Source of the DNA: Escherichia coli
GTDB lineage: Bacteria > Pseudomonadota > Gammaproteobacteria > Enterobacterales > Enterobacteriaceae
Reading direction: 5' to 3' (one strand)
DNA: 64,000 bases
NCBI RefSeq assembly: GCF_009931435.1
Contig: NZ_CP043414.1
A model generated the notes under the pieces. The model made no database searches. It was not told the origin of the DNA and worked only from the letters and a program-made list of their open reading frames with translations. Every line of letters starts with the position of its first letter. Position 1 is the stretch's first letter. This document shows, one piece after another, positions 35,965 through 55,668 of the stretch. The translations under genes were made by a program, and so were the position numbers.

Positions 35965-36948
35965 TTATGAGTGGTTCAGAAGATGGCTTGCCTCTTGTTT
36001 GATTTGTTGTAGTACGTTACGCACATGATTTATCTGATTAATTGCATCTTCTTTTTCTTTACGTAACCGCGCATCCAGTAAATGATTTTCTGGCAGTGGT
36101 GTTTCACTCATCTGGCGATAAGGGATCCACGGATTATCATCTTCGTCTTCAAAGCGGAACGCCGGAGCATAATAATCAACCTCTTCTTCCAGGCCATACG
36201 CTGTCACCTGCGGTTCTTCATCGCCAAGGCAGATAAGGTGTGTTAATAACTCTTTGAATGGCATATCACCCTGACCTGAAATACAGGCTTTATGGCCCAG
36301 GCCACCTTGTTCTTTAACAATCAAGGCATCTTTGATATGGACCTGGGTAATATGTGGTGCCATCGTTTTTAAAGCGTCTATGGGATGCTCATTCGCATTG
36401 ATCATATTCGCAAAATCAAACAGTAAGGAAAGTGATTTCATCTCACTGTCTTTGACCAGCGACACCAGTTCATGGCTTTTTAAATCTTCATGCTGTTCGA
36501 TCGTAAAGGTCAGGCCGCTGTCCTGATACGTTTCCCGAACATAGGCAATATCGTTAGCAATGATCGATAATACGTCGCGTAAATTACCTTCATAACGCGG
36601 ATAAAAACGCACGGACGATGCCCCGGTTTTCAACGCAATGGCGACGGCTTCGTCAATAGATGCCTTATCTGAAGCGCTGGTTTCAATATGAATATCAAGG
36701 TTCAGATGGCGGGCTTTATCGCCAAAGGCAGAGAGTTCTTTATCTGCCATATTGCCCAAAGAAAAACGTTCGCCATCCAGAACATGAATTTTTACGCCTC
36801 GCAGATTATTTTCACTCGCAATATCAAGTAAATCAGCTGGCAATACTCTTTCCAGCCGCATATTTAAATGAAAAGCGTAGGCATGCAAATAAAGAGGAAG
36901 AGTATCGACACGTTGTAGAATCTTTCTTGCGTTATTTATTGTCACCAT
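35965..36948 (-). CDS. yihM: Sugar phosphate isomerase/epimerase (xylose isomerase-like TIM barrel)
   Basis: ORF ...MVTINNARKILQRVDTLPLYLHAYAFHLNMRLE...; start taken at MVTINN (about 327 aa); ORF track starts 18 codons earlier. Confidence 0.85.
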   Translation of the reverse strand: MVTINNARKILQRVDTLPLYLHAYAFHLNMRLERVLPADLLDIASENNLRGVKIHVLDGERFSLGNMADKELSAFGDKARHLNLDIHIETSASDKASIDEAVAIALKTGASSVRFYPRYEGNLRDVLSIIANDIAYVRETYQDSGLTFTIEQHEDLKSHELVSLVKDSEMKSLSLLFDFANMINANEHPIDALKTMAPHITQVHIKDALIVKEQGGLGHKACISGQGDMPFKELLTHLICLGDEEPQVTAYGLEEEVDYYAPAFRFEDEDDNPWIPYRQMSETPLPENHLLDARLRKEKEDAINQINHVRNVLQQIKQEASHLLNHS

Positions 36949-36955
36949 AAAACAC

Positions 36956-37666
36956 CTACAGATTAATGATGAGATCCACGGCCTCAAATCGCCAATATTC
37001 AATATCTATCTGGACAATATTGCCTTGCTGGTCAGCGCGATGTTTTTCAATTAAGATCGCAGGCATGCCCGCTGAACCGCCAAGAAATTTACTGATATCA
37101 CCCGGCATTCTTACGGGTTTGAAAACCAGTTTTTTTACTACCGTCTCTTTTTGGTAGCATTTTTCCCAGACTGAAGAAAATGAGTGGTTTTCAAGTTGCT
37201 CTATAAAACCTGGGGCAACTTCAGGATTAATATATGTTTCGTGATAGAAAACTTTATGTCCTTCCAGCGCCCCCCAGCCGGTAATGCGATAGAGTTCAGT
37301 TGATGGCGTCACTGCAACCAGTGGCGCGAGCGTCTCGGGAATGTCGCTGGTACGGCTTTTCTCAGTAAAGCCCCAGGAAGGTTCCCGCCCTTGCTCAATT
37401 GCGGCCCGCTGAAAGCTCGCCGACAGCTCCGGACTGTAATTAAATCGCGGCTGAGTCACGAACCACCCTTTACGATCCTTACGGAAAATTTTGGATTCTG
37501 CCTCAAGGTTCAGCAACGCCTGGCGTAACGTCATACGTTTAATGCCCAGCAACTCTCCCAGCTCTCTTTCTGAAGGGAGTTTTCCACCCGGCGTGGTGAT
37601 GCCATCTTTCAACCACCGATCCAGTTTCTCTTTTGCATTTTCTACGGTGGATTGATTCTCCGCCAT
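36956..37666 (-). CDS. yihL: GntR-family transcriptional regulator YihL
   Basis: 236 aa ORF with N-terminal GntR HTH (ERELGELLGIKRMTLRQAL). Confidence 0.9.
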   Translation of the reverse strand: MAENQSTVENAKEKLDRWLKDGITTPGGKLPSERELGELLGIKRMTLRQALLNLEAESKIFRKDRKGWFVTQPRFNYSPELSASFQRAAIEQGREPSWGFTEKSRTSDIPETLAPLVAVTPSTELYRITGWGALEGHKVFYHETYINPEVAPGFIEQLENHSFSSVWEKCYQKETVVKKLVFKPVRMPGDISKFLGGSAGMPAILIEKHRADQQGNIVQIDIEYWRFEAVDLIINL

Positions 37667-37882
37667 TGTTTAATCCTTTTGGTTTAAACCAGATGAGGCA
37701 TCTTACGCTTACGCCAAAAAAGAAAGCAATTAACAGCGTATGACTTTGCAGATAATTGTGACAAAGCTCTCTATTGACGTAACCACAAACTTATAAGGGA
37801 GATACTCGCACTGGTGAGAACTTACGACAGGCAAAAAAAAACCTGCCATCACTGGCAGGTTTTTTATGACTAAAAAACGAAA

Positions 37883-39706
37883 TTAATCGTCTTTCGGTGC
37901 GCGGTTGGCGCGACGACGATCGTTTTCCGTCAGGTGACGTTTACGAATACGGATAGAGGTCGGAGTCACTTCTACCAGTTCGTCATCATCGATGAACTCC
38001 AGAGCTTGTTCCAGAGTCATGCGGATAGGCGGAACCAGAACAACGGCTTCGTCAGTACCGGAAGCACGCATGTTGGTCAGTTTCTTACCGGTCAGACAGT
38101 TTACAGTCAGGTCGTTAGAACGGCTGTGAATACCGATAATCTGACCTTCGTAAACTTCTGCACCGTGACCGAGGAACAGCTTACCGCGATCCTGCAGACC
38201 GAACAGCGCGAACGCGACCGCTTTACCCTGACCGTTAGAGATCAGTACGCCATTCTGACGCTGACCCACTTCGCCCGGACGTACGTCGTCGTAGTGGCTG
38301 AAGGTGGAGTACAGCAGACCAGTACCGGAAGTCATGGTCATGAACTCAGAACGGAAGCCAATCAGACCACGGCTTGGGATCACGTAGTCGAGACGTACGC
38401 GGCCTTTACCGTCTGGATTCATGTTTTTCAGGTCGCCTTTACGTTCGCCCAGCGCCTGCATTACAGAACCCTGATGCTGTTCTTCAACGTCCAGAGTCAC
38501 GTTTTCATACGGCTCTTGTTTACGACCGTCAATTTCACGGAAGATAACTTTCGGACGGGATACCGCCAGTTCGAAACCTTCACGACGCATGTTTTCGATC
38601 AGAACAGACAAGTGCAGTTCGCCACGGCCAGAAACGCGGAACGCATCGGCATCTTCGGTTTCTTCTACGCGCAGCGCAACGTTGTGTACCAGTTCTTTGT
38701 TCAGACGATCCAGGATCTGACGAGACGTTACGAACTTACCTTCTTTACCGCAGAACGGTGAGGTGTTAACGCAGAAGAACATAGAAACGGTCGGCTCATC
38801 AACGGAGAGTGCCGGCAGCGCTTCAACGTTTTGCGTGTCGCAAACGGTGTCAGAAATGTTCAGTTCGCCCAGGCCCGTGATCGCCACGATATCGCCAGCT
38901 TCCGCCAGATCGGTTTCGATACGTTCCAGACCGAGGTGGCCCAGCACTTTACCGACTTTCGCGTTGCGGGTTTTGCCTTCGCTATCGATGATAGTAACTT
39001 GCTGGTTCGGCTTCACTTTACCGCGCTTGATGCGGCCAATGCCGATAACGCCAACATAGCTGTTGTAATCGAGCTGAGAAATCTGCATCTGGAACGGACC
39101 GTCAAGGTCAACGTCCGGCGCAGGAACGTGGTCAACAATTGCCTGATACAGCGGGGTCATGTCTTCTGCCATATCTTCGTGGTCCAGACCCGCGATACCG
39201 TTCAGCGCAGAAGCGTAAACGATCGGGAAGTCCAGCTGCTCGTCAGTCGCGTCGAGGTTAACGAACAGGTCGAATACCTGATCCACAACCCAGTCAGGAC
39301 GCGCGCCAGGGCGGTCAACTTTGTTGATAACAACAATTGGCTTCAGGCCGTAAGCAAACGCTTTTTTGGTTACGAAGCGCGTTTGCGGCATCGGGCCGTC
39401 AAATGCGTCAACCACCAGCAGCACTGAGTCTACCATGGACATTACACGTTCAACTTCACCACCGAAGTCGGCGTGCCCCGGGGTATCAACGATGTTGATA
39501 CGGTAATCATTCCATTTGATAGCGGTGTTTTTCGCGAGGATGGTAATCCCACGCTCTTTCTCCAAATCGTTGGAGTCCATCACGCGCTCTTGGGTTTCGG
39601 CACGAGAGTCGAACGTACCGGATTGTTGGAGCAGCTTGTCTACCAGGGTGGTTTTACCATGGTCTACGTGCGCGATGATGGCGATATTACGCAATTTTTC
39701 GATCAC
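37883..39706 (-). CDS. typA: Ribosome-dependent translational GTPase TypA/BipA
   Basis: 607 aa [29 protein letters not shown]... with EF-G-like GTPase motifs. Confidence 0.95.
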
Positions 39707-39856
39707 AACTTTGCCTCAGGCATTAGAAATAGCGCGTTATTGTACACGGATTAATCGCACTACAAAACAGGATCACAAACATCCTCCGCAAACAAGTATT
39801 GCAGAGTCCCTTTGTGATCGCTTTCACGGAGCATAAAAAGGGTTATCCAAAGGTCA

Positions 39857-39905
39857 TTGCACCAATATGGTGCTTAATGTTTCCATTGAAGCACTATATT
39901 GGTGC
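39857..39905 (+). promoter_or_regulatory. NtrC (NRI) enhancer binding sites upstream of glnA
   Basis: Palindromes TGCACCAATATGGTGC (39857-39872) and GCACTATATTGGTGCA (39890-39905), plus further TGCAC/GTGCA half-sites up to about 39950. Confidence 0.7.
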
Positions 39906-39978
39906 AACATTAACATCGTGGTGCAGCCCTTTTGCACGATGGTGCGCATGATAACGCCTTTTAGGGGCAATTTAAAAG

Positions 39979-39995
39979 TTGGCACAGATTTCGCT
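39979..39995 (+). promoter_or_regulatory. sigma54 promoter glnAp2
   Basis: TTGGCACAGATTTCGCT fits the -24 GG / -12 GC sigma54 consensus (TGGCAC-N5-TTGCW-like), about 85 nt upstream of the glnA start. Confidence 0.75.
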
Positions 39996-40078
39996 TTATC
40001 TTTTTTACGGCGACACGGCCAAAATAATTGCAGATTTCGTTACCACGACGACCATGACCAATCCAGGAGAGTTAAAGT

Positions 40079-41488
40079 ATGTCCGCTGAACACGTACTGA
40101 CGATGCTGAACGAGCACGAAGTGAAGTTTGTTGATTTGCGCTTCACCGACACCAAAGGTAAAGAACAGCACGTCACTATCCCTGCTCATCAGGTGAATGC
40201 TGAATTCTTCGAAGAAGGCAAAATGTTTGACGGCTCCTCGATTGGCGGCTGGAAAGGCATTAACGAATCCGACATGGTGCTGATGCCAGACGCATCCACC
40301 GCAGTGATTGACCCGTTCTTCGCGGACTCTACCCTGATTATCCGTTGCGATATCCTTGAACCAGGCACCCTGCAAGGCTATGACCGTGACCCGCGTTCCA
40401 TCGCGAAGCGCGCTGAAGATTACCTGCGTTCTACTGGCATTGCCGACACCGTACTGTTCGGGCCAGAACCTGAATTCTTCCTGTTCGATGACATCCGTTT
40501 CGGCGCGTCTATCTCCGGTTCTCATGTTGCCATCGACGATATCGAAGGTGCATGGAACTCCTCCACCAAATATGAAGGTGGTAACAAAGGTCACCGTCCG
40601 GCAGTGAAAGGCGGTTACTTCCCGGTTCCGCCGGTAGACTCTGCTCAGGATATCCGTTCTGAAATGTGTCTGGTGATGGAACAGATGGGTCTGGTTGTTG
40701 AAGCCCATCACCACGAAGTAGCGACTGCTGGTCAGAACGAAGTGGCTACCCGCTTCAATACCATGACCAAAAAAGCTGACGAAATTCAGATCTACAAATA
40801 TGTTGTGCACAACGTTGCACACCGCTTCGGTAAAACCGCGACCTTTATGCCAAAACCGATGTTCGGTGATAACGGCTCCGGTATGCACTGCCACATGTCA
40901 CTGTCTAAAAACGGCGTCAACCTGTTCGCTGGCGACAAATATGCAGGTCTGTCTGAGCAGGCGTTGTACTACATTGGCGGCGTAATCAAACACGCTAAAG
41001 CAATTAACGCCCTGGCAAACCCGACCACCAACTCTTACAAGCGTCTGGTCCCGGGCTACGAAGCACCGGTAATGCTGGCTTACTCTGCACGCAACCGTTC
41101 TGCGTCTATCCGTATTCCAGTGGTTTCTTCTCCGAAAGCACGTCGTATCGAAGTCCGTTTCCCGGACCCAGCGGCTAACCCGTACCTGTGCTTTGCTGCC
41201 CTGCTGATGGCCGGTCTTGATGGTATCAAGAACAAGATCCACCCAGGCGAAGCCATGGACAAAAACCTGTATGACCTGCCGCCAGAAGAAGCGAAAGAGA
41301 TCCCACAGGTTGCAGGCTCTCTGGAAGAAGCACTGAACGAACTGGATCTGGACCGCGAGTTCCTGAAAGCCGGTGGCGTGTTCACTGACGAAGCCATTGA
41401 TGCGTACATCGCTCTGCGTCGCGAAGAAAATGACCGCGTGCGTATGACTCCGCATCCGGTAGAGTTTGAGCTGTACTACAGCGTCTAA
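40079..41488 (+). CDS. glnA: Glutamine synthetase
   Basis: 469 aa [35 protein letters not shown]... recognised as GlnA. Confidence 0.97.
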
Positions 41489-41549
41489 TAGTTGAAGTTG
41501 TACTACCCGGTGCAAAGAAGGCCGGGATTTAGTTGCCGTGGAAACTTTC

Positions 41550-41576
41550 AGCCCATCTCTGCATGGGCTTTTTTCT
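41550..41576 (+). terminator. Intrinsic terminator in glnA 3' UTR
   Basis: Hairpin AGCCCAT-CTCTGC-ATGGGCT followed by TTTTTTCT; an additional hairpin CCCGGTGCAAAGAAGGCCGGG at 41506-41526. Confidence 0.6.
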
Positions 41577-41662
41577 CCGTAACTTCTTTGATGCTTCGCG
41601 CTTTTTATCCGTAAAAAGCTATAATGCACTAAAATGGTGCAACCTGTTCAGGAGACTGCTTT

Positions 41663-42712
41663 ATGGCAACAGGCACGCAGCCCGATGCTGGGCAGATCCT
41701 CAACTCACTGATTAACAGTATTTTGTTAATTGATGACAACCTGGCAATCCATTACGCCAACCCCGCCGCGCAACAACTACTCGCCCAAAGCTCCCGCAAA
41801 TTGTTTGGTACGCCGTTACCGGAACTGTTGAGCTACTTCTCATTAAATATCGAGCTGATGCAAGAAAGTCTGGAGGCGGGGCAAGGTTTTACCGATAACG
41901 AAGTGACGCTGGTGATCGACGGTCGCTCGCATATCCTTTCTGTGACGGCCCAGCGTATGCCGGACGGCATGATCCTGCTGGAGATGGCACCGATGGATAA
42001 CCAGCGCCGCTTAAGTCAGGAACAGCTACAGCACGCCCAGCAGGTTGCTGCCCGTGATTTAGTGCGCGGCCTGGCGCATGAGATTAAAAATCCGCTTGGC
42101 GGTTTACGTGGCGCGGCCCAGTTGCTCAGCAAAGCATTACCTGACCCGTCACTGCTGGAATATACCAAAGTGATTATTGAACAGGCGGATCGGTTGCGAA
42201 ATCTGGTCGACCGTCTGTTGGGGCCGCAACTGCCCGGTACGCGCGTTACCGAAAGTATTCACAAAGTGGCTGAACGCGTGGTGACGCTGGTGTCGATGGA
42301 ACTGCCGGACAACGTGCGGTTGATTCGTGATTACGACCCCAGCCTGCCGGAACTGGCGCACGACCCGGATCAAATTGAACAGGTATTGCTGAATATTGTG
42401 CGCAATGCGCTACAGGCACTGGGGCCGGAAGGTGGTGAAATCATTCTGCGTACCCGCACCGCGTTTCAACTGACCTTACACGGCGAGCGCTATCGGCTGG
42501 CGGCGCGGATTGATGTGGAAGATAACGGGCCAGGCATTCCGCCTCATTTGCAGGATACGCTGTTTTACCCGATGGTCAGCGGCCGCGAAGGTGGCACCGG
42601 GCTTGGCTTATCCATCGCCCGTAATTTGATTGATCAGCATTCAGGCAAAATTGAATTTACCAGTTGGCCAGGTCATACCGAGTTCTCGGTTTACCTGCCT
42701 ATCAGGAAATAA
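41663..42712 (+). CDS. glnL: Nitrogen regulation sensor histidine kinase NtrB (NRII)
   Basis: 349 aa ORF with H-box HEIKNPLGG. Confidence 0.95.
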
Positions 42713-42723
42713 AGGTGACGTTT

Positions 42724-44133
42724 ATGCAACGAGGGATAGTCTGGGTAGTCGATGACGATAGTTCCATCCGTTGGGTGCTTGAACGTGCGCTCGCTGGAGC
42801 AGGTTTAACCTGTACGACGTTTGAGAACGGCGCGGAAGTGCTGGAGGCGCTGGCGAGCAAAACACCGGATGTACTGCTTTCAGATATCCGTATGCCGGGA
42901 ATGGACGGGCTTGCGCTGCTCAAGCAGATTAAACAGCGCCATCCGATGCTTCCGGTCATCATTATGACCGCACATTCCGATCTGGATGCTGCCGTCAGCG
43001 CCTATCAACAAGGGGCGTTTGATTATCTGCCCAAACCGTTTGATATCGACGAAGCCGTGGCGCTGGTTGAGCGCGCCATCAGCCATTATCAGGAACAGCA
43101 GCAACCGCGTAATGTTCAGCTTAACGGCCCGACGACCGATATCATCGGCGAAGCGCCAGCCATGCAGGACGTGTTCCGGATTATCGGTCGGCTTTCACGT
43201 TCTTCTATTAGCGTGCTGATTAACGGCGAATCCGGCACCGGTAAAGAACTGGTCGCTCATGCCCTGCATCGCCACAGTCCTCGAGCCAAAGCGCCGTTTA
43301 TCGCGCTGAATATGGCGGCTATCCCGAAGGATTTGATCGAATCAGAACTGTTCGGTCACGAGAAAGGCGCGTTTACCGGCGCGAATACCATTCGTCAGGG
43401 GCGTTTTGAACAGGCCGATGGCGGCACGTTATTCCTCGATGAAATTGGCGATATGCCGCTCGATGTACAGACGCGTTTGCTGCGCGTGCTGGCAGACGGT
43501 CAGTTTTATCGCGTTGGCGGCTATGCGCCGGTGAAAGTGGATGTGCGGATTATCGCTGCGACCCATCAGAATCTCGAACAGCGGGTACAGGAAGGCAAGT
43601 TCCGTGAGGATTTGTTCCACCGCCTGAACGTTATCCGCGTTCATCTGCCGCCGCTGCGTGAGCGTCGGGAAGATATTCCCCGTCTGGCACGCCATTTTTT
43701 ACAGGTTGCCGCGCGCGAACTGGGCGTAGAAGCGAAGTTGCTGCATCCGGAAACCGAAGCCGCGCTGACGCGTCTGGCATGGCCGGGTAACGTGCGCCAG
43801 CTGGAAAACACCTGCCGTTGGTTAACGGTGATGGCCGCCGGGCAGGAAGTGTTGATTCAGGATTTGCCTGGCGAACTGTTTGAATCAACGGTTGCGGAGA
43901 GTACTCCGCAAATGCAACCGGACAGTTGGGCAACGCTGTTAGCGCAGTGGGCAGACAGAGCGCTGCGTTCCGGTCATCAAAATTTGCTTTCCGAAGCGCA
44001 GCCTGAGCTTGAGCGGACGTTACTGACGACCGCGTTGCGACATACGCAGGGGCATAAACAGGAAGCTGCGCGGCTACTTGGCTGGGGGCGTAACACCCTG
44101 ACGCGGAAGTTAAAAGAGCTGGGGATGGAGTGA
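42724..44133 (+). CDS. glnG: Nitrogen regulation response regulator NtrC (NRI)
   Basis: Start at [19 protein letters not shown] (469 aa); receiver domain, sigma54-activator AAA+ domain (GESGTGKE), C-terminal HTH. Confidence 0.95.
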
Positions 44134-44244
44134 TTCACAGCTTGTGTGTAAAGATTGATTATTGAGCGCAAATTGCTGGTATTTTGCGCTTTACTGTTCC
44201 GATAAGTTCAGTATGATCTTGCCCGGAAAACGGGGAGAGTCATT

Positions 44245-44355
44245 ATGCTGGAATCAATAATTAATCTGGTATCGAGTGGCGCAGTTGACAGCCACACACC
44301 GCAAACTGCCGTTGCTGCCGTGCTGTGTGCTGCGATGATTGGGCTGTTTAGCTGA
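44245..44355 (+). CDS. yshB: Small membrane protein YshB (36 aa)
   Basis: Short ORF MLESIINLVSSGAVDSHTPQTAVAAVLCAAMIGLFS preceded by GGGGAGAG; below the ORF-track size cut-off; location between glnG and hemN as I recall for yshB. Confidence 0.75.
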   Translation: MLESIINLVSSGAVDSHTPQTAVAAVLCAAMIGLFS

Positions 44356-44364
44356 AGCTCGTTG

Positions 44365-44500
44365 TTTATGCCGGATGCGGAGAAAGTCGTAGGCCTGATA
44401 AGACGCGACCAGCGTCGCATCAGGCATCATGCTCAGATGCCGGATGCCGGATGCCGGATGCCGGATGCCGGATGCCGGATGCAGCGTAAACGCCTTATCC
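44365..44500. repeat. REP/BIME cluster containing a 5-copy GCCGGAT heptanucleotide tandem repeat
   Basis: REP-like palindromes (GCCTGATAAGACGCGACCAGCGTCGCATCAGGC; GCGTAAACGCCTTATCCGGCCTAC) flank five complete GCCGGAT units at 44439-44473. Confidence 0.6.
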
Positions 44501-44618
44501 GGCCTACAAAAGCAATAATTTCAACAGGTTTTCTTAACCAGCGCATCAGGCAATCTTGTTCTCAGCACATTGATGGCGCTTTCGTTTTCTACTTTGTAAA
44601 CGAAGCGCCATTCACCAT

Positions 44619-45992
44619 TTAAATCACTCGTGAGAACTGCTGCATCCGCGCTTTCTGGCGCAGATAGGTATCAAAGCACATGCAAATGTTGCGGATCAGC
44701 AGGCGACCTTTCGCCGTTACCTGAATCCCCTTCTCATCCACATCCACCAGCCCATCTTTTGCTAACGGGGCAAGCAGCTTGAGATCTTCTGCAAAGTAGT
44801 CAGCGAAGTGCAAATCCCACTGTTGCTCAATGGGGGCATAATCCAGACGGAAGTTGCAGATGAGCGACTTAATCACATCGCGACGAATACAGTCATCACG
44901 CGTTAGCGCAATACCACGCCACAGCGCATTGCCTTGTTCATCCACTTGCTGATAGTACTGCTTCAACTCTTTCTGATTCTGCGCGTAGCAGTCGCCAATC
45001 ATGCTAATGGCTGAAACGCCCATCCCCAGCAGATCGGTATCGCCCTGAGTGGTGTAGCCCTGGAAGTTACGATGAAGCACGCCTTCACGTTGGGCCACCG
45101 CCAGCTCATCATCCGGGCGAGCAAAGTGATCCATACCGATAAACTGATAGCCCGATTGTGTCAGGAAGGCGATGGTTTCCTGCAGGATATCGAGTTTTTG
45201 CTGCGGACTCGGCAGGTCAGCATCTTTGATTTTACGCTGAGCAGCAAAAATGGTCGGCAAATGCGCGTAGTTAAAGACACTCAGGCGATCGGGGTTAAGT
45301 TCCGCCACGCGTTTCAGGGTAAAGGCGAAACTCTCCGGCGTCTGTTTCGGCAGGCCGTAAATCAGGTCGATGTTGGTGGAAGTAAAGCCAATCTCACGCG
45401 CATGGTTAAGCAGTGCAAAGATGAACTCTTCATCCTGCTCGCGGTTAACCAGACGTTGCACTTCTTTGTTGAAGTCCTGCACGCCCATGCTCAGGCGATT
45501 AAAGCCTTCGGCGCGTAAATGATCGAGTACATCCAGTTCGATTTCCCGCGGATCGACTTCGATCGAAATCTCCGCATCGGCATTGAACTGGAAGTTTTCG
45601 CGCAGCAACTTCATCAGTCGGCTGATTTGCGCTTTGTTCAGATACGTCGGCGTACCACCGCCCCAGTGCAATTGGCTGACGTGACGCCCGGCGAACAGCG
45701 GTGCACGATGGACGATTTCTTGCTCCAGCGCGTCCAGATACTGATCGGCCTTGTGCTGCTGGCGAGTAACAATCTTATTGCAACCGCAGAAGTAACAAAG
45801 CTTATGGCAGAACGGGATATGTACGTAGAGAGATAATGGACGCTCAGGATAGCGCGCCACGGCTTGTAAAAACGCCTGTTCGCCGAAGTCTTCTGAAAAC
45901 TCCAGCGCGGTCGGGTACGAGGTGTATCGTGGCCCGGAATAGTTATATTTCTGGATCAGGGCCAGATCCCAGTCGATTTGCTGTACAGACAT
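44619..45992 (-). CDS. hemN: Oxygen-independent coproporphyrinogen III oxidase (radical SAM)
   Basis: Start at MSVQQIDWDLALIQKYNYSGPRYTSYPTALEF (457 aa); radical-SAM CxxxCxxC (CHKLCYFCGC). Confidence 0.95.
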   Translation of the reverse strand: MSVQQIDWDLALIQKYNYSGPRYTSYPTALEFSEDFGEQAFLQAVARYPERPLSLYVHIPFCHKLCYFCGCNKIVTRQQHKADQYLDALEQEIVHRAPLFAGRHVSQLHWGGGTPTYLNKAQISRLMKLLRENFQFNADAEISIEVDPREIELDVLDHLRAEGFNRLSMGVQDFNKEVQRLVNREQDEEFIFALLNHAREIGFTSTNIDLIYGLPKQTPESFAFTLKRVAELNPDRLSVFNYAHLPTIFAAQRKIKDADLPSPQQKLDILQETIAFLTQSGYQFIGMDHFARPDDELAVAQREGVLHRNFQGYTTQGDTDLLGMGVSAISMIGDCYAQNQKELKQYYQQVDEQGNALWRGIALTRDDCIRRDVIKSLICNFRLDYAPIEQQWDLHFADYFAEDLKLLAPLAKDGLVDVDEKGIQVTAKGRLLIRNICMCFDTYLRQKARMQQFSRVI

Positions 45993-46180
45993 GCTCACTC
46001 CTTCCGATGGCGTCTCTGGCGGCTACGGCGTACCGGCGAATGCCCGTTTCGGGTCATCAGCCGGTTGCGCAGCCACTTTTGTCGCCGCGACAACCGCTGT
46101 AGTTTAACGAATAACCACACCAGATAACATATAACCGGAAGGGTTATCAGCAGAACGGGAAGGCCCACGGCGGCAATCCG

Positions 46181-46690
46181 TTAGTTGCCCCGCAGCAGAC
46201 GCATCATGTCTTCTTGCTTCTCGTCTTCTTCCTCTTCTTCGTCATCGTCATAAGAGAGGCCGAGTTTCTGCATCAACTCATCAATACGATCCAGTTTGGC
46301 ATCCACCCAGGATTGCTCTTCGGCGCTCAGGGTTTCGCCTGCCTCCAGACGTTCCAGCAGCGCATCCAGACGCTCATCCGTTTCCAGTAACTCCAACTCC
46401 GCCTGCGGTGAAAGCATAGGTTTCTCACTCTTCGGTTTGTGCTGTTTGGTGACTTTTTCAGTCACGCCCAATGGAATAGGGGTTTTACTGCCAATACGTG
46501 GATCTTTCGGTGCGTTCTGGCCTTTGCTGCCTGACGTGGTGTTACCGCCCGCTGCGCGGCTGCCCGGCGCATGACCACGACGTTTTTTCTGACGCTTACG
46601 GTCACGAGCTTCCTGATCCAGCTCCTCGCGTGTTTTTCGACGCGCTTTTGCATGACCTTTGCTGCGTGAGTTTGAAGATGATGGTTTCAT
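46181..46690 (-). CDS. yihI: Der GTPase-activating protein YihI
   Basis: 169 aa from [19 protein letters not shown]...; very basic N-terminus, acidic C-terminus ([10 protein letters not shown]). The ORF-track start at 46753 would run into the CsrC terminator and is rejected. Confidence 0.9.
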
Positions 46691-46758
46691 AATGGTTCGT
46701 CTTTTAGCCGTTTTATTCAGTATAGATTTGCGGCGGAATCTAACAGAAAGCAAGCAAA

Positions 46759-47001
46759 GAAAAAAGGCGACAGATTACTCTGTCGCCTTTTTTCCTGACT
46801 CATAACCCTTAACGGGTCTTACAATCCCTGCAGGCCGCCAACACACCCTGTTTTTCCATTAGCCGGAACAATCCGTGTTGATTCCATTTCCGTTTAATTA
46901 CGTCTCCGGACGTTTGTCTTCCTGACAATCCTCTGTCTTCGCCTCCTGGCGCTCCTGACCCTCATCCTGAGTCATTGTTCCTGTTAGCGTCCTCGCTCTA
47001 T
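46759..47001 (-). ncRNA. csrC: CsrC small RNA (CsrA-sequestering)
   Basis: Minus-strand sequence reads ATAGAGCGAGGACGCTAACAGGAACAATGACTCAGGATGAGGGTCAGGAGCGCCAGGAGG..., with many GGA motifs, ending in hairpin GGCGACAGAGTAATCTGTCGCC plus U-tract; matches CsrC as I remember it. Ends +/- a few nt. Confidence 0.85.
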
Positions 47002-47271
47002 GGGTGCTACTTTACGCCTTTGCTTTAAACAAACAATCAACCGCCATCAGTATTTGCACATTTTCAGAGTTTTATATAAAAGCAATTAACTGATTTATAT
47101 AGCTTATTTGACATGCATCGCAGAATTTTCTCTGCTATTTCGCATAAAGACTATCGGCAATGTCTCACAAAGCGTATGGCTTTTACTTACAACGCTCACG
47201 CCGAAAAATCCGCCTTTTATTATGGTTCAGGTATAATCGCCGCAAAGCTTTGACTGACGGAGACGACCGCT

Positions 47272-47904
47272 TTGACTAATTTGAATTATCAACAGACGCA
47301 TTTTGTGATGAGTGCGCCTGATATTCGCCACCTACCTTCCGATACCGGAATTGAAGTGGCTTTTGCAGGCCGTTCCAACGCAGGTAAATCCAGCGCGCTG
47401 AACACGCTGACTAACCAGAAAAGCCTGGCGCGGACCTCAAAAACCCCAGGGCGCACCCAGCTTATCAACCTGTTTGAAGTGGCTGACGGCAAGCGTCTGG
47501 TTGACCTGCCCGGCTATGGCTACGCGGAAGTCCCGGAAGAGATGAAGCGCAAATGGCAGCGCGCGCTCGGCGAGTACCTCGAAAAACGTCAGAGCCTGCA
47601 AGGCCTGGTGGTACTCATGGATATTCGCCATCCGCTGAAAGATTTGGATCAGCAGATGATTGAGTGGGCGGTAGACAGCAATATCGCCGTGCTGGTGCTG
47701 CTGACCAAAGCGGACAAACTGGCAAGCGGCGCACGTAAAGCGCAATTGAATATGGTGCGTGAAGCGGTGCTGGCGTTTAACGGTGATGTGCAGGTTGAAA
47801 CGTTCTCTTCGCTGAAGAAGCAAGGCGTGGACAAGCTGCGGCAGAAACTGGATACCTGGTTTAGCGAGATGCAGCCTGTAGAAGAAACGCAGGACGGCGA
47901 ATAA
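47272..47904 (+). CDS. engB: Ribosome biogenesis GTPase EngB (YihA)
   Basis: 210 aa ORF starting at TTG ([23 protein letters not shown]...); G1 motif GRSNAGKSS. Confidence 0.9.
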
Positions 47905-47924
47905 TTTTCTTGCCTTAATGCTTG

Positions 47925-47975
47925 TGCCGGATGTGGCGTATCCGGCTCTGGCATAGGCCTGAGAAGCATCAGGCA
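47925..47975. repeat. REP-like palindromic element downstream of engB
   Basis: GCCGGATGTGGCGTATCCGGC ... GCCTGAGAAGCATCAGGC inverted repeats. Confidence 0.5.
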
Positions 47976-47998
47976 TTACGATCTTTTCTTTCGCCCAA

Positions 47999-48107
47999 TA
48001 AAAAACGCCCCAGTCATTACTGACTGGGGCGGCTAAAATATTCAGCCAAATCCGATTACGTGAAGTAAAAGGTCTGAAAGATAGAACATCTTACCTCTGT
48101 ACCCTAC
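47999..48107 (-). ncRNA. spf: Spot 42 small RNA
   Basis: Minus-strand sequence GTAGGGTACAGAGGTAAGATGTTCTATCTTTCAGACCTTTTACTTCACGTAATCGGATTTGGCTGAATATTTTAGCCGCCCCAGTCAGTAATGACTGGGGCGTTTTTTA recognised as Spot 42; lies just downstream of polA. Confidence 0.9.
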
Positions 48108-48254
48108 GCGACTAACTTTACTCTTTTTTGTTCAGTTCAGAAAGCATTTTTTGTAATTTTTTTTCAGTTGTTGCATAGGAATTTCTAATAGCCATCACAA
48201 AACGTGACAGCTTATGTTGCTTACTTACGAAAAAAGGGCATGTTCAGGCGAATC

Positions 48255-51041
48255 TTAGTGCGCCTGATCCCAGTTTTCGCCACTCCCCACTTCCACCAGC
48301 AGCGGCACATCCAGACGGGTACAGTTTTCCATCAGTTGATGAATCTGTTTCGCGACGGCATCGACATCATCTTTATGAACTTCAAATACCAGTTCATCGT
48401 GTACCTGCATAATCATACGCACACGCGGTTGCTCAGCTTGTAACCACGCATCAACGGCAATCATCGCTCGTTTGATAATGTCGGCGGCGGTTCCCTGCAT
48501 TGGCGCGTTAATGGCTGCACGTTCAGCCGCTGCACGACGAGCACCATTGCTGGATTTGATATCCGGCAGATACAGACGGCGTCCGTCCAGCGTTTCAACG
48601 TAGCCCTGTTCTTTCGCCTGCGCACGGGTGCGCTCCATATACTCCAGCACGCCTGGGTAGCGTTCGAAGTAAAGGTCCATGTACTTCTGCGCTTCTTTAC
48701 GTGGAATGTTCAATTGTCGCGCCAGACCGAAAGCACTCATGCCATAAATCAGACCAAAGTTGATCGCTTTCGCGCTACGACGTTGCTCGCTGGTGACGGT
48801 TTCCAGTGGCAAACCAAACACTTCTGCCGCCGTAGCCCGGTGGATATCTTTTCCTTCCGCGAATGCGGTCAGCAAGCCTTTGTCACGCGAGAGATGCGCC
48901 ATAATGCGCAGTTCAATCTGCGAGTAGTCCGCCGAGACAATCACATAATCCTCTGGCGCAATAAACGCCTGGCGGATACGACGACCTTCTTCGTTACGCA
49001 CCGGAATGTTTTGCAGGTTAGGATCGGTTGACGATAAACGTCCCGTAGCGGTTACTGCCTGGTGATAAGAGGTATGTACACGCCCGGTTTTCGGGTTGAT
49101 CATCAGCGGCAGCTTGTCGGTGTAGGTCGATTTCAGCTTCGCCAGACCACGATACTCCAGAATCACTTTTGGCAACGGATAGTCCAGCGCCAGTTCTTCC
49201 AGTACCTCTTCCGACGTTGACGGCGCACCACCCGGCGTTTTCTTCAGCGGTTTAATGCCCTGTTTTTCAAACAGAATGGTTTGTAACTGCTTGGTGGAAG
49301 AAAGGTTAAATTCTTCACCTGCAATTTCATGCGCTTTCTTTTCCAGCTCAGCCAGACGTAGAGTGAGCTCTTCAGAATGATTATGAAGCACTTTCGGATC
49401 GATCTTCACACCGTTACGTTCAATGCGTGAAAGCACCGGCACCAGCGGCATTTCGATGTTCTCGAAGACGTTCAACGGCCCTTTGTGTTTTTGCAGATCC
49501 GGCCACATTTTCAGATGCAACTGCAAGGTGACATCTGCATCTTCGGCGGCGTAACGTCCGGCCTCTTCGAGGGCAATCTGGTTAAAGGTCAGTTGATTTT
49601 TGCCTTTACCCGCAATCTCTTCAAAAGTGATGGTTTTGTGCTTCAACCAACGTTCCGCGAGGCTGTCCATATCGTGACGCCCGGCAACGCTATTGAGAAT
49701 GTAGGACTCCAGCATGGTATCAAACGCAATCCCACGCAGCTCAATGCCGTAGTTCGCCAGAATACCGCGATCGTATTTCAGGTTTTGCCCGACCTTCAGC
49801 GCCTTTTCATCTTCCAGCAGCGGTTTTAGCAACTCGAGTGCACGCTCGCGAGAGATTTGATCGGGCGCATCAAGATAATCATGAGCAACCGGAATATATG
49901 CCGCTACGCCTGGCTCGATAGCAAAAGAAAGCCCGACCAGGTTAGCAGAGATGTTATCAAGGCTGTCGGTTTCGGTATCAAATGCAAATACCGGCGATTT
50001 TTCCAGCTTCGCAATCCACGCTTTCAGTGTTTCTTCATCAAGGATGGTGACGTAGTTGTCATAAGAAATCACCGTTGCCGTCACTTCTGGCGCTTCGTCT
50101 GCAACACTGGTTTCCTGCGGCTTCGCGGCTGGTTTTGCCCCTTTGGCCTGTAACCATTTGCCCGCTTCGACATCAGCAGTCCAGCGTTTGAACTCATACT
50201 TTTTGAACAGCCCCAACAACTCTTCCGCCGCCGGTTGCTGCACTTCTAGTTGTTCACAGGTAAGCTCCAGTTCAACGTCGGTTTTAATCGTCGCCAGCTG
50301 GTAAGAGAGATAAGCCACTTCTTTGTTTTGCTCGAGCTTCGCCGCCATTGTTTTCGCGCCACGGAAGCTCAACCCAGCAATTTTTTCTGGCTCGGCATAC
50401 AGCGTATCCAGTCCGCCAAGACCTTGTAGCAATGCTTGCGCGGTTTTTTCACCGACGCCCGGTACGCCAGGGATGTTATCAGAGGAGTCACCCATCAGCG
50501 CCAGGAAGTCGATGATCAGTTCTGGCGGCACGCCGTACTTATTCACCACCTCTTCCGGTCCGAGGATGGTATTCGTCATGGTATTGATAAGCGTAATATT
50601 TGGCGTCACCAGCTGCGCCATATCTTTATCGCCTGTGCTTATCAGCACCGGACGCCCGGCTTTTTCGGCTTCGCGCGCCAGAGTACCGATAACGTCGTCC
50701 GCTTCTACGCCAGAAACCGCCAGCAGCGGCAGTCCCATCGCTTTAACCATCGCGTGCAGAGGTTCGATTTGTGCTCGCAGATCGTCCGGCATTGGCGGAC
50801 GATGTGATTTGTAATGTTCAAACAGTTCATCACGAAAGGTTTTTCCCTTGGCGTCAAAGACCACCGCTGCATGCGTCGGTTTATATTGCATGATTAGACT
50901 GCGCAGCATGTTGAGGACACCATACATCGCACCGGTCGGCTCGCCTGCGCTGTTAGTCAGCGGGGGAAACGCGTGATAGGCGCGATAAAGATAAGATGAA
51001 CCATCTACAAGGATAAGTGGATTTTGGGGGATCTGAACCAT
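48255..51041 (-). CDS. polA: DNA polymerase I
   Basis: 928 aa [44 protein letters not shown]... recognised as PolA. Confidence 0.97.
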
Positions 51042-51154
51042 AATGTCCGTGCCTGTTTATCAGATTATGGGTAAAGGATGCCACAGACAGGATGAAAACA
51101 TGAGTTTTTCACCGCTTTTCGTGAAAATCTTTTGTAGATCTTCTGGATCGCTCG

Positions 51155-51163
51155 CAAATCGTC
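51155..51163. promoter_or_regulatory. DnaA box in the polA upstream region
   Basis: TGTGGATAA (reverse complement TTATCCACA, perfect DnaA-box consensus) about 115 nt upstream of the polA start; a second near-consensus box TGTGGATAG at 51306-51314. Confidence 0.5.
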
Positions 51164-51404
51164 ATGTGGATAACTTTGTGCATAAATTATTTACATCGCT
51201 TTTAATTTATTATCATGCTTTTTACAGCATGATGTTTGTCTTTGCTTTTCATACAGTTAAATATAAAGCCATCCCTAATAATTGTGATAATGGGATTTTT
51301 TCTAATGTGGATAGATATGAATTATTTTTCTCCTTAAGGATCATCCGTTATTTGGGGCGTTTTCTGCTAAAATCGGCGCCTTGCGCTTCTTTAGCGCACT
51401 GTCT

Positions 51405-52337
51405 ATGGCTAACCTTTTGAATAAATTCATTATGACGAGAATACTCGCTGCGATAACCCTTTTGCTGAGTATCGTATTGACCATTTTGGTCACTATTTTT
51501 TGCTCCGTCCCGATCATCATTGCCGGGATTGTAAAACTATTGCTACCTGTGCCAGTCATTTGGCGAAAGGTTTCGCGTTTTTGTGATTTTATGATGTATT
51601 GCTGGTGTGAAAGTCTGGCGGTATTACTGCATCTGAACCCACACCTGCAATGGGAAGTTCACGGGCTGGAAGGGTTAAGTAAGAAGAACTGGTATCTGCT
51701 TATTTGTAACCACCGTAGTTGGGCAGATATTGTCGTACTGTGCGTGCTGTTTCGTAAGCACATTCCGATGAATAAATATTTCCTCAAGCAGCAGCTTGCC
51801 TGGGTGCCATTTCTTGGCCTGGCATGCTGGGCGCTGGATATGCCGTTTATGAAGCGTTATTCCCGCGCTTATTTATTACGTCATCCGGAGAGACGTGGTA
51901 AAGATGTTGAAACCACACGGCGTTCTTGTGAAAAGTTTCGCCTGCACCCCACCACCATTGTCAATTTCGTTGAAGGCTCCCGTTTCACGCAAGAAAAACA
52001 TCAGCAAACCCACTCCACTTTTCAAAACTTGTTGCCACCAAAGGCGGCAGGCATTGCGATGGCGCTAAATGTACTGGGTAAACAATTCGATAAACTGCTT
52101 AATGTTACGCTGTGTTATCCCGACAATAACCGTCAGCCGTTCTTCGATATGTTAAGCGGTAAACTGACGCGAATTGTCGTACATGTGGATTTACAGCCTA
52201 TTGCCGATGAGTTACATGGCGACTACATCAATGACAAAAGCTTTAAGCGCCATTTTCAGCAATGGCTGAACTCACTGTGGCAGGAAAAAGACCGACTTCT
52301 GACGTCGTTGATGTCATCACAGCGTCAGAATAAGTAA
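51405..52337 (+). CDS. yihG: Acyltransferase-family inner membrane protein YihG
   Basis: Start at [14 protein letters not shown] (310 aa); acyltransferase HxxxxD-like motif NHRSWADI. Confidence 0.9.
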
Positions 52338-52377
52338 GTTTTACTCGCCTCTGAATGAGCAGAGGCGAGTGAGTATT

Positions 52378-53808
52378 TTAATGAACAAAACGTCCGGCAC
52401 GAGACATAAATTCTTCTTCGCTCATTTCCTGTCCGTTAAAAACAACTTTACCCGGTGTATAACGCAGTTGCAGCGAGGCGGTATTGTTGTCAATCGTGAT
52501 TAACTGAAACATCTGACCTAATGTCATCATCCCGCTGATTTGTTTATCAGCCTGCTTTTGCGCTTTTTCAGCATCCATTCCTTCAGATAAATTAAGCTGT
52601 TTTGCGGTTTCTGTGACGACATTAAGCGGTAACTTCACATCAAAAATGAGCGATTTAATATCTTTGTTTGTGGATGATGAGGATTTGGCTGGGTCGGCAA
52701 TACTGATATCCAGATTGGCATTTAGTTCGCCGAGTGCGTTCTTCCATCTTACCGGTTGTTTAATGGTCGGCTCACTTTTTTGTAATAACGGTAAATACTC
52801 TTTGAACAATGCAGCATTCACTTCTTGCAGAGCAACTTCATCGTTTGCTAACTCAGGGTGTGCAGCAAGCTGCTTCTGCATCGCAATGTTATACTGAATG
52901 ATAAATTGGCGCACCGCTGAGGGATCAATAGATTCCGCAATCAAGGACCACTCACCACTACCGAGTTGCTGATTTCCTTTTGTTAACTTATCAAGTTCGT
53001 AGGTCAGATTGACATTGATATAATCTTTGTCTTTAACGCGATCCAGCCTGGTTTTTGCAACGAAAGCATCGATTTGGGCAACGTCTTCTCCCTGATTGAT
53101 AATGTTAATCTGATTGAATTTCGACTCGCTTTCGCCAACCGGAAATTTCTTTTCTTCTAATCGCGTTAGAGAATCAATGGTAAAACTTTTCGCCGTTACT
53201 TTATTCAATGGCGATAATTCCAGAACAAGATCTTCGACTTTGCCTTCAATATCCAGATTAGACAATGAACTACCATCACCATTAAAAGTAAACTGGCCCT
53301 CACCAAAAGAAAACTTTCCATATTTTGCAGGGGCAACATCTAATGTCGTGGAGAATGAGCCACCAAACGCGAATCGCAATGTCGCTTCCACGGGCGATTT
53401 ATTTTTTGCGGCGATAAATAGCGGTTGTGTCAGTTCATTATTCACTAAGTTCACTTTTGCCGCTGCCAGTGCGGGGATGACATTACCACGCATTAACATT
53501 GTGATGGGCAACGGACCGTGCTCAACATCCACATCAAATGCAACTTTCTGGCCTGGCTTGATATTGAGATCGGGTGCACCGTTATCAAATGTCATTTGCA
53601 TTTGAAAATGAGAATTAAAAAAGCCTTTGTCAAAGTTTTTATAACTTAACGTCATATCGTAGGCATGTTCACCTTTCTCTTTAGCATCGTTAAAATCTTT
53701 AATGAACTTTTCGACACCAGGCTGAATTTGCGTACCTGTGTACCATGTGCCACCACCCCAGATTACGGCTAACGCAACAATAACACCTGTAGCTGACTTA
53801 CGTATCAT
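52378..53808 (-). CDS. yihF: DUF945-family protein YihF
   Basis: Start taken at MIRKSATGVIVALAVIWGGG (476 aa); ORF track extends 14 codons further upstream. Confidence 0.85.
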   Translation of the reverse strand: MIRKSATGVIVALAVIWGGGTWYTGTQIQPGVEKFIKDFNDAKEKGEHAYDMTLSYKNFDKGFFNSHFQMQMTFDNGAPDLNIKPGQKVAFDVDVEHGPLPITMLMRGNVIPALAAAKVNLVNNELTQPLFIAAKNKSPVEATLRFAFGGSFSTTLDVAPAKYGKFSFGEGQFTFNGDGSSLSNLDIEGKVEDLVLELSPLNKVTAKSFTIDSLTRLEEKKFPVGESESKFNQINIINQGEDVAQIDAFVAKTRLDRVKDKDYINVNLTYELDKLTKGNQQLGSGEWSLIAESIDPSAVRQFIIQYNIAMQKQLAAHPELANDEVALQEVNAALFKEYLPLLQKSEPTIKQPVRWKNALGELNANLDISIADPAKSSSSTNKDIKSLIFDVKLPLNVVTETAKQLNLSEGMDAEKAQKQADKQISGMMTLGQMFQLITIDNNTASLQLRYTPGKVVFNGQEMSEEEFMSRAGRFVH

Positions 53809-53962
53809 ATAAATATTCCCTGATAAAACAGCAAAACTTTGAATATCCACTTATGCTGAAATAATGTCCAGCGGCAGGACGCATTATCAGAATGTATTTA
53901 TATTTATTAAATAATAAAAAAAGCCCGTGAATATTCACGGGCTTTATGTAATTTACATTGAA

Positions 53963-54589: not shown

Positions 54590-54605
54590 GATCTACTCTC
54601 TCCGA

Positions 54606-55592: not shown

Positions 55593-55668
55593 CCCATCAT
55601 CCGGAAAACATTACGAATGATGAAGGATATCATTTCACGATGATTTTGGTTGCGCCGCTTACAAGCTT

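What the first reader, a model, noticed from the sequence alone, without database searches (positions are those of the whole stretch)
44245..44355. 36-codon small membrane protein gene (yshB) below the ORF-caller threshold
A short ORF with a plausible ribosome-binding site encodes a single-TM-like peptide (MLESIINLVSSGAVDSHTPQTAVAAVLCAAMIGLFS) in the glnG-hemN spacer; easy to miss in automated annotation.
Basis: partly seen in the sequence, partly recalled or inferred. Interest (0 to 1): 0.3.

Follow-up and report, generated by a model that had tools for sequence, protein, structure and literature searches.

The report
Known small-protein gene yshB
The short open reading frame is real and conserved, but it is the already catalogued E. 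coli gene yshB, which encodes a 36-residue membrane peptide and is routinely annotated today, so the finding is correct and ordinary.

Summary
The ORF is exactly where stated: window 44245..44355, + strand, ATG to TGA, with the quoted peptide. It lies between glnG and the convergent hemN. The ORF alone means nothing, because the same 485-nt spacer holds five ORFs of 36 aa or more.

Comparison with other genomes shows it is a gene. In loci collected through glnG only, 30 Enterobacterales genomes carry a YshB-like ORF about 100-110 nt after glnG. All length differences are in frame (35-41 aa). Codon-position divergence is 0.35/0.17/0.56, and pN is below pS in 99.8% of pairs. The start codon, Shine-Dalgarno sequence and a TTTAC(T/A)-N16-17-TATGAT promoter are conserved.

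It is already known. It is b4686 in K-12 MG1655 and is annotated "YshB family small membrane protein" in every sampled RefSeq E. coli genome (present in 5425 of 5426). It matches NCBIfam NF033841 at 72 bits against a cut-off of 34.

Published work reports the protein by top-down mass spectrometry, cleavage by the intramembrane protease RseP, its own promoter, and a virulence role in Salmonella.

The likely mechanism is inferred, not shown. An N-terminal amphipathic helix plus a C-terminal Ala-rich membrane helix, with an invariant Cys and a small-xxx-small face, would bind a larger membrane protein.

The claim that annotation misses this gene is out of date. Novelty: already known. Interest is low.

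The parts
44190..44217 (+). Sigma-70-type promoter of yshB: -35 TTTACT, 16-nt spacer, -10 TATGAT
   Evidence: Found by the consensus scan. TTTAC and GTATGAT are invariant or nearly so in the upstream alignment of 30 sequences (the window plus 29 orthologous loci, Escherichia to Budvicia). [quoted passage not shown] The transcription start site was not determined here.
44232..44239 (+). Shine-Dalgarno sequence GGGGAGAG (GGAG core 7 nt before the ATG)
   Evidence: Read directly from the sequence. A GGAG/GGGG/GAGG block lies at the same distance from the ATG in the orthologous loci.
44245..44355 (+). yshB coding sequence, 36 codons plus TGA
   Evidence: Searches give the ORF. It matches NF033841 at 72.1 bits. 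It is annotated as yshB in K-12 and in RefSeq genomes. The frame is conserved with in-frame indels and pN/pS of 0.41. AlphaFold2 models helices at residues 2-12 and 19-35, with mean pLDDT 73.
44393..44503 (.). Two REP hairpins (a BIME) downstream of the yshB stop codon; probable 3' boundary or stabiliser of the transcript (inferred). The block contains a (GATGCCG)x6.7 array at 44436..44482
   Evidence: Inverted repeats lie at 44393-44425 and 44474-44503. The tandem array was found. There is an Rfam naRNA4 (REP-derived) hit at 56.4 bits, below the gathering score of 59.5. No intrinsic terminator was found by the scan. The block varies between strains and species, so it is not a conserved part of the gene.
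44164..44191 (+). 9-bp hairpin GAGCGCAAA/UUUGCGCUU after glnG, abutting the yshB -35; possibly the end of the glnALG transcript or a regulator site (unresolved)
   Evidence: It appears in the minimum-free-energy fold, but the z-score is only -0.68. The underlying block GCGCAAATTGCTG.TATTTTG is conserved across many genera.

Best explanation
This is yshB, a real, independently transcribed gene for a 36-residue protein, already catalogued in E. coli K-12 as b4686. What is shown here or in the cited papers: the ORF, its start codon, its Shine-Dalgarno sequence and a sigma-70-type promoter are conserved about 100-110 nt downstream of glnG in much of the Enterobacterales; the frame is under purifying selection; the protein has been detected intact by top-down mass spectrometry; and N-terminally tagged YshB is cut by the intramembrane protease RseP in vivo and in vitro. 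What is inferred: the peptide folds as a short N-terminal amphipathic helix (residues 2-12), a flexible acidic/His linker, and a C-terminal Ala/Leu-rich helix (residues 19-35). That C-terminal helix inserts post-translationally into the inner membrane as a tail anchor, with the N-terminus in the cytoplasm. The best-conserved residues are A24, A25, C28 and A29, followed by a small or polar residue (G, N, S, H or V) at position 33. Together they form a small-xxx-small packing face. Through this face YshB most likely binds a larger inner-membrane protein, or itself, and modulates it in the manner of MgrB, AcrZ or MgtS. RseP would control its level. The partner and the physiological role in E. coli are unknown. 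In Salmonella the homologue is reported to promote intracellular replication.
For: Identity: the ORF and peptide are as stated. The peptide matches the NCBIfam NF033841 equivalog at 72.1 bits against a cut-off of 34, full length. K-12 annotates b4686 at the same position. The gene is present once in 5425 of 5426 complete E. coli genomes at 95% identity or more, and is annotated in every listed genome. Coding: loci were collected through the GlnG C-terminus only, so the sample is unbiased for yshB. Of these, 30 Enterobacterales loci carry the ORF. Lengths are 35-41 aa, so all indels are in frame. Codon-position divergence is 0.353/0.171/0.564, and pN is below pS in 99.8% of 435 pairs. The window and E. 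albertii differ only synonymously (pS 0.217, pN 0). The sense frame is open in 30 of 30 orthologues. Expression signals: the promoter and Shine-Dalgarno sequence are conserved, and no sigma-54 site lies upstream on the + strand. Architecture: modelled helices at 2-12 and 19-35. Residues 21-35 are the most hydrophobic stretch, and the N-terminal helix has a hydrophobic moment of 0.50. M1 and C28 are invariant; P19, Q20, A24, A25 and A29 are at least 90% conserved. Literature: RseP cleavage, class I in all four assays (PMC10470546); top-down MS detection (PMC12529367); own promoter (PMC9731577); more than 11,000 copies predicted in stationary phase (PMC7549839, PMC10502375); core-genome family in E. 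coli, Klebsiella, Salmonella and Shigella (bioRxiv 10.1101/2020.07.27.224071).
Against: The hydrophobic stretch is short, at 15-16 residues, with summed apparent insertion energy of only about -1.1 to -0.2 kcal/mol. That figure uses scale values I recalled from memory. There is no Lys or Arg anywhere in the peptide to fix its topology. The structure model has only moderate confidence (pLDDT 73, pTM 0.34). [quoted passage not shown] The RseP assays used tagged, mostly overproduced constructs. No partner protein is known, and none was tested here. The gene is missing from the glnG-hemN spacer in 16 Enterobacterales loci, so it is dispensable in those lineages.
Confidence: 0.85

Rival explanations
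1. YshB is not a membrane-spanning protein. It would instead be a soluble or peripherally bound helical hairpin, with the Ala-rich C-terminal helix packing against the N-terminal amphipathic helix or lying on the membrane surface.
For: Only 15-16 apolar residues are present, the summed insertion energy is near zero, and there are no positive flanking charges. The model shows two helices joined by a linker. MBP or FLAG tags could force an artificial topology in the RseP assays.
Against: RseP, an intramembrane protease, cleaved YshB in all four assay formats, including with purified enzyme (PMC10470546). TMHMM or TOPCONS predicted a single span according to that paper. NCBI curators name the family a small membrane protein.
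Confidence: 0.15
2. The transcript also, or mainly, acts as a regulatory RNA, as the sigma-54-dependent sRNA NrsZ does downstream of ntrC in Pseudomonas. The ORF would be secondary.
For: An sRNA occupies the corresponding position in Pseudomonas (PMC9731577). From memory, the Salmonella work started as an sRNA study. Dual-function RNAs exist.
Against: The substitution pattern is that of a protein, with position 2 the most conserved and all indels in frame. The predicted fold of the transcript is no more stable than shuffled controls (z -0.71). Rfam gives only a REP-derived hit downstream. There is no sigma-54 promoter upstream. The protein has been detected.
Confidence: 0.05
3. The ORF is a chance reading frame, or the real gene is the overlapping 70-aa ORF on the minus strand (44208..44420).
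For: Several equally long or longer ORFs occur in the spacer. Antisense frame -1 shares wobble positions with the sense frame, so it shows a similar pN/pS (0.47 against 0.41) and is stop-free within the interval in 22 of 30 orthologues.
Against: The minus-strand ORF is not preserved. Its length ranges from 0 to 105 aa, and there is none in the E. coli species representative or in E. albertii. Its start lies in a REP element that E. albertii lacks. The sense frame is open in 30 of 30, with a conserved ATG, Shine-Dalgarno sequence and promoter. In the sense frame position 2 is the least variable, as expected for the true frame.
Confidence: 0.01
4. YshB is a type I toxin-like membrane peptide of the Hok, Ibs, Ldr or TisB kind, whose synthesis is held in check by an antisense RNA.
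For: It is small, hydrophobic and cleaved by RseP alongside the Hok toxins.
Against: It is single-copy, belongs to the core genome and stays syntenic across an order. That is unlike the patchy, multicopy type I toxin loci. No antisense RNA family or convergent promoter was found over the ORF. It is predicted to be abundant in stationary phase, which is incompatible with a potent toxin.
Confidence: 0.03

Closest known systems
YshB of E. coli K-12 (b4686, YP_002791260.1; NCBIfam NF033841; Pfam PF28018 on relatives)
   Same: Same gene. The position between glnG and hemN is identical, the length is 36 aa, and the model matches over its full length. Within the K-12 coding sequence the DNA differs at only two aligned positions.
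   Different: Nothing of substance within the gene. The downstream REP region of this window carries five extra GATGCCG units.
YshB of Salmonella enterica (Bomjan, Zhang and Zhou 2019, J Bacteriol 201:e00314-19)
   Same: It is the orthologue at the same locus, downstream of glnG (PMC9731577). It is reported to promote intracellular replication and virulence (cited).
   Different: That paper is not in the library, so its data were not read here. The Salmonella sequence was not among the 80 loci fetched. Whether the E. coli protein has an equivalent role is unknown.
Small single-pass regulatory membrane proteins such as MgrB (PhoQ), AcrZ (AcrB), MgtS (MgtA) and CydX (cytochrome bd)
   Same: Size class and a single hydrophobic helix. 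It is expressed from its own promoter and is an RseP substrate together with MgrB and CydX. A conserved helix face suggests partner binding.
   Different: No sequence similarity to these proteins. YshB has no positively charged flank and a shorter, Ala-rich hydrophobic core. No partner has been identified. It 'works like' these proteins only by inference.

Membership tests
YshB family small membrane protein (NCBIfam NF033841, equivalog) | Score above the curated cut-off, with a full-length match to the 40-position profile | tested here: met
   72.1 bits against a cut-off of 34, E 2.4e-20, residues 1-36 on profile positions 1-40.
YshB family small membrane protein (NCBIfam NF033841, equivalog) | Conserved position directly downstream of glnG (ntrC), same strand | tested here: met
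   The ATG lies 111 nt after the glnG stop codon in the window. The arrangement is the same in K-12, in 30 Enterobacterales loci and in divergent relatives, even where another gene separates yshB from hemN.
YshB family small membrane protein (NCBIfam NF033841, equivalog) | Family sequence signature: ML(E/D)S start, H-(S/T)-P-Q, then A-A-x-L-C-A-A helix with an invariant Cys | tested here: met
   The window peptide carries every element. M1 and C28 are invariant, and P19, Q20, A24, A25 and A29 are at least 90% conserved across 28 sequences.
YshB family small membrane protein (NCBIfam NF033841, equivalog) | The frame is maintained by purifying selection (a real coding gene) | tested here: met
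   In-frame indels only, codon-position divergence 0.353/0.171/0.564, pN below pS in 99.8% of pairs. The sense frame is open in 30 of 30 orthologues.
YshB family small membrane protein (NCBIfam NF033841, equivalog) | The protein is actually made | not testable with these tools
   Literature only: detected intact by top-down proteomics (PMC12529367). An earlier tagging study (Hemm et al. 2008) is cited but is not held in the library.
YshB family small membrane protein (NCBIfam NF033841, equivalog) | Integral membrane location through a single transmembrane helix | tested here: inconclusive
   The hydrophobic stretch covers residues 21-35 only, the summed insertion energy is about -1.1 to -0.2 kcal/mol, and there is no Lys or Arg. 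A helix at 19-35 is modelled. Published RseP cleavage supports insertion of tagged forms.
Small regulatory membrane proteins that act by binding a larger membrane protein (MgrB/AcrZ/MgtS type; a functional class, not a sequence family) | A defined membrane-protein partner whose activity or stability changes | not testable with these tools
   No partner is known. Only a conserved small-xxx-small face (A25, A29, then a small or polar residue at 33) and an invariant C28 hint at helix packing.
Type I toxin-antitoxin membrane peptides (Hok/Ibs/Ldr/TisB) | An overlapping or adjacent antisense RNA gene, and a patchy, often multicopy distribution | tested here: not met
   One copy per genome in 5425 genomes. 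Stable synteny across the order. No antisense RNA family and no minus-strand promoter match over the ORF.
Leader peptide or upstream ORF controlling a downstream cistron | A regulated gene downstream on the same strand | tested here: not met
   The next gene, hemN, is on the opposite strand and convergent.

The most novel reading that the evidence does not exclude
The biochemical function of YshB is still unknown. Three things have been noted but not explained: an invariant mid-helix Cys28, a near-invariant (H/Q)-(S/T)-P-Q boundary motif, and a complete lack of positive charges, all held about 100-110 nt behind glnG across the Enterobacterales. The most novel reading the evidence allows is this: YshB is a dedicated tail-anchored modulator of a specific conserved inner-membrane complex, possibly thiol- or metal-dependent through Cys28 and His17. 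Its fixed linkage to the nitrogen-regulation operon would then reflect a functional tie rather than mere history.
Probability: 0.1. Interest if true: 0.4.

Novelty: already known. Interest (0 to 1): 0.07.

Why it matters
It matters little as a discovery. The gene has been in the K-12 annotation for years, has curated NCBIfam and Pfam models, and has been studied experimentally. The check is a clean positive control: the first-stage reader can recognise a genuine 36-codon gene from raw sequence. It also shows that ORF length and dN/dS alone would not have singled it out. The spacer holds longer spurious ORFs, and one antisense frame mimics the selection signal. Conserved start, ribosome-binding site, promoter and synteny were the decisive evidence. 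The open question is what YshB binds and does in E. coli.

Tried and rejected
I used the all-against-all representative search instead. It found only 15 hits, mostly mis-extended or truncated calls of the same gene.

2. The local Pfam-A scan found nothing, although precomputed tags on relatives name PF28018:YshB. The local copy probably predates that model.

3. The primary papers were not in the library under the ids I tried. These were Hemm et al. 2008, Hemm et al. 2010 and Bomjan et al. 2019. Their content is cited only through papers that quote them.

4. RNA rival: the transcript fold is no better than shuffled controls. There is no Rfam family apart from a sub-threshold REP-derived hit and no sigma-54 promoter.

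5. Antisense-gene rival: pN/pS could not reject it, at 0.47 against 0.41. ORF preservation did reject it.

6. I looked for degraded yshB remnants by tblastn in the 16 Enterobacterales loci that lack the ORF. There were only chance-level matches, and the glnG-hemN spacer there is only about 40-90 bp in most of them. So in those loci the gene is absent, not broken.

7. The terminator scan found no intrinsic terminator after yshB.

Full report
**Observation.** The stretch window 44245..44355 on the + strand is an ATG-to-TGA ORF of 36 codons. GGGGAGAG lies at 44232..44239, with the GGAG core 7 nt before the ATG. The ORF sits in the 485-nt spacer between glnG (stop codon ending at 44133, + strand) and the convergent hemN (44619..45998, - strand). 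The ORF alone is not evidence of a gene. The same spacer holds five ORFs of at least 36 aa, and those of 86, 70 and 58 aa are longer than this one.

**It is already annotated.** K-12 MG1655 carries yshB (b4686, YP_002791260.1, 'uncharacterized protein YshB') at the equivalent position between hemN and glnG.
- A 181-nt query covering the promoter and ORF finds one copy in 5425 of 5426 complete E. coli genomes, all at 95% identity or more.
- Every one of 40 genomes sampled evenly down the ranking annotates it as 'YshB family small membrane protein'.
- The peptide matches the NCBIfam equivalog model NF033841 over its full length, at 72.1 bits against a curated cut-off of 34.
- The local Pfam copy gave no hit, but precomputed annotations on relatives carry PF28018:YshB.

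**Independent test of coding.** I did not search with the peptide, because that finds only places where it is conserved. Instead I fetched loci through the last 117 residues of GlnG from one genome per species. This returned 80 loci, from Escherichia to Halomonas. I then asked what lies downstream of glnG in each.
- A YshB-like ORF begins about 100-110 nt after glnG in 30 Enterobacterales loci. The genera include Escherichia, Citrobacter, Enterobacter, Kluyvera, Pluralibacter, Mangrovibacter, Siccibacter, Serratia, Pectobacterium, Brenneria, some Erwinia and Pantoea, Hafnia, Edwardsiella and Budvicia.
- Lengths are 35, 36, 37, 40 and 41 aa, so every indel is a multiple of three.
- Mean pairwise divergence by codon position is 0.353/0.171/0.564. 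pN is below pS in 99.8% of 435 pairs.
- The window and E. albertii encode identical peptides despite pS of 0.217.
- The sense frame is stop-free in 30 of 30 orthologues.

**A caution about the antisense frame.** Antisense frame -1 shares wobble positions with the sense frame. It therefore gives a similar pN/pS (0.47 against 0.41) and is open in 22 of 30 orthologues. That rival is rejected on other grounds. The minus-strand ORF varies from 0 to 105 aa and is absent in the E. coli species representative and in E. albertii. It starts inside a REP element that E. albertii lacks. Only the sense frame has a conserved ATG, Shine-Dalgarno sequence and promoter.

**Expression signals.** A sigma-70-type promoter, TTTACT-16 nt-TATGAT, lies at 44190..44217. 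In an alignment of the upstream regions, TTTAC and GTATGAT are invariant or nearly so from Escherichia to Budvicia. A GGAG-like block precedes each ATG. There is no sigma-54 promoter match upstream on the + strand. The search did recover the known glnAp2-like site at 39980. [quoted passage not shown] No intrinsic terminator follows the gene. Two REP hairpins lie downstream, at 44393-44425 and 44474-44503, and probably bound the transcript. That last point is inferred.

**Distribution.** The gene is absent from the glnG-hemN spacer in 16 Enterobacterales loci. These include Yersinia, Rahnella, Rosenbergiella, Pseudocitrobacter, Pseudescherichia, some Erwinia and Pantoea, and one Klebsiella-labelled isolate. 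Where glnG and hemN are still adjacent, the spacer is only about 40-90 bp and tblastn finds no remnant. The gene is also absent from all non-Enterobacterales loci. Divergent relatives at 53-60% identity are again about 100-110 nt after glnG. This holds even where a solute-binding-protein gene separates them from hemN, so the linkage is to glnG and not to hemN.

**What the protein looks like.**
- AlphaFold2 with the 28-sequence family alignment gives helices at residues 2-12 and 19-35 joined by a low-confidence linker (mean pLDDT 73, pTM 0.34).
- The N-terminal helix is amphipathic, with a hydrophobic moment of 0.50.
- The most hydrophobic stretch is residues 21-35 (TAVAAVLCAAMIGLF). Its summed apparent insertion energy is about -1.1 kcal/mol, rising to -0.2 for 16 residues. 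The scale values were recalled from memory.
- The peptide has no Lys or Arg and two acidic residues, a pattern shared by 29 of 31 family members.
- M1 and C28 are invariant. P19, Q20, A24, A25 and A29 are at least 90% conserved.
- A25, A29 and a small or polar residue (G, N, S, H or V) at position 33 form a small-xxx-small face typical of helix-helix packing. This is inference.

**What is known from papers.**
- YshB was one of six 'class I' small membrane proteins cleaved by the intramembrane protease RseP in all four assays, including chromosomal RseP and purified enzyme (PMC10470546).
- It was detected intact by top-down proteomics. It lacks tryptic sites, which explains why bottom-up methods miss it (PMC12529367).
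- It has been predicted at more than 11,000 copies per stationary-phase cell (PMC7549839 and PMC10502375).
- A C-terminal His-tagged form was not detectable in one study.
- The family belongs to the core genomes of E. coli, K. pneumoniae, S. enterica and S. sonnei (bioRxiv 10.1101/2020.07.27.224071).
- The Salmonella homologue is reported to promote intracellular replication and virulence (Bomjan et al. 2019, cited). That paper was not available to read.

**Mechanism.** Shown: yshB is a conserved, translated gene with its own promoter, and its product is an RseP substrate. Inferred, at roughly even odds in detail: the C-terminal helix inserts post-translationally as a tail anchor with the N-terminus in the cytoplasm, and the conserved A24/A25/C28/A29 face binds a larger membrane protein or another YshB. 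It would then act as a modulator in the manner of MgrB, AcrZ or MgtS, with RseP setting its level. The main rival for the mechanism is a peripheral or soluble helical hairpin, given the short, weakly hydrophobic helix and the lack of positive flanks. An RNA-level function is not supported but cannot be excluded as an additional role.

**Verdict.** The remark that automated annotation misses this gene is out of date. The feature is already known, and interest is low.

Noticed in passing
window 44436..44482: A perfect tandem array (GATGCCG)x6.7 sits on the 5' arm of the second REP hairpin. K-12 MG1655 and the closest E. coli genome have 35 nt (five units) fewer here. None of the top-ranked of 5,426 complete E. 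coli genomes aligns through it in one piece. It looks like a strain-specific microsatellite expansion inside a REP element.
   Followed up: partly
window 44393..44503: Two REP hairpins (44393-44425 and 44474-44503) form a BIME between yshB and hemN. They give a just-sub-threshold Rfam naRNA4 match (56.4 against 59.5 bits, minus strand). E. albertii lacks the first REP, seen as a 45-nt gap.
   Followed up: partly
window 44148..44191: A block upstream of the yshB -35 is conserved across genera (TGTAAAGAT... and GCGCAAATTGCTG.TATTTTG). In the window it can form a 9-bp hairpin (44164-44191) that abuts the -35 hexamer. It could be the end of the glnALG transcript or a regulator site. The fold is not better than shuffled controls.
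   Followed up: partly
window 44222..44235: A short hairpin, CCCG-GAAAA-CGGG, lies at the predicted 5' end of the yshB leader, and its 3' arm runs into the Shine-Dalgarno sequence. Several Enterobacteriaceae keep the CCCG/CGGG arms with different loops, and Mangrovibacter has GCG/CGC instead. It may affect mRNA stability or translation. This was not tested.
   Followed up: no
L008, L009, L012, L015, L021, L027, L028, L030-L032, L035, L036, L038, L039, L041, L047: yshB is absent downstream of glnG in these Enterobacterales loci (Yersinia, Rahnella, Rosenbergiella, Pseudocitrobacter and others). Where glnG and hemN are still adjacent, the spacer shrinks to about 40-90 bp, with no remnant. This is a lineage-specific presence/absence pattern. 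Loss, gain and relocation were not distinguished.
   Followed up: partly
L085-L087, 3001..5423: In the lineage carrying the 37-aa relative P0014, a solute-binding-protein gene (SBP_bac_5, 542 aa) lies between yshB and hemN. yshB still sits about 100 nt after glnG, so the conserved linkage is to glnG.
   Followed up: no
window 36000..56000: This 20-kb stretch is at most 98.9% identical to any of 5,426 complete E. coli genomes. The window therefore comes from a lineage somewhat outside the well-sampled strains, although gene order is the same.
   Followed up: no
window 44573..44613: An inverted repeat, ATGGCGCTTTCGTTT...AAACGAAGCGCCAT, lies immediately after the hemN stop codon and is conserved in E. 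albertii. It is probably the hemN terminator hairpin. The simple terminator scan did not call it, because no T-run follows it.
   Followed up: no
window 44245..44355 (method note): The sense frame and antisense frame -1 share wobble positions and give nearly the same pN/pS (0.41 against 0.47). dN/dS alone therefore cannot assign the strand of a short ORF.
   Followed up: yes
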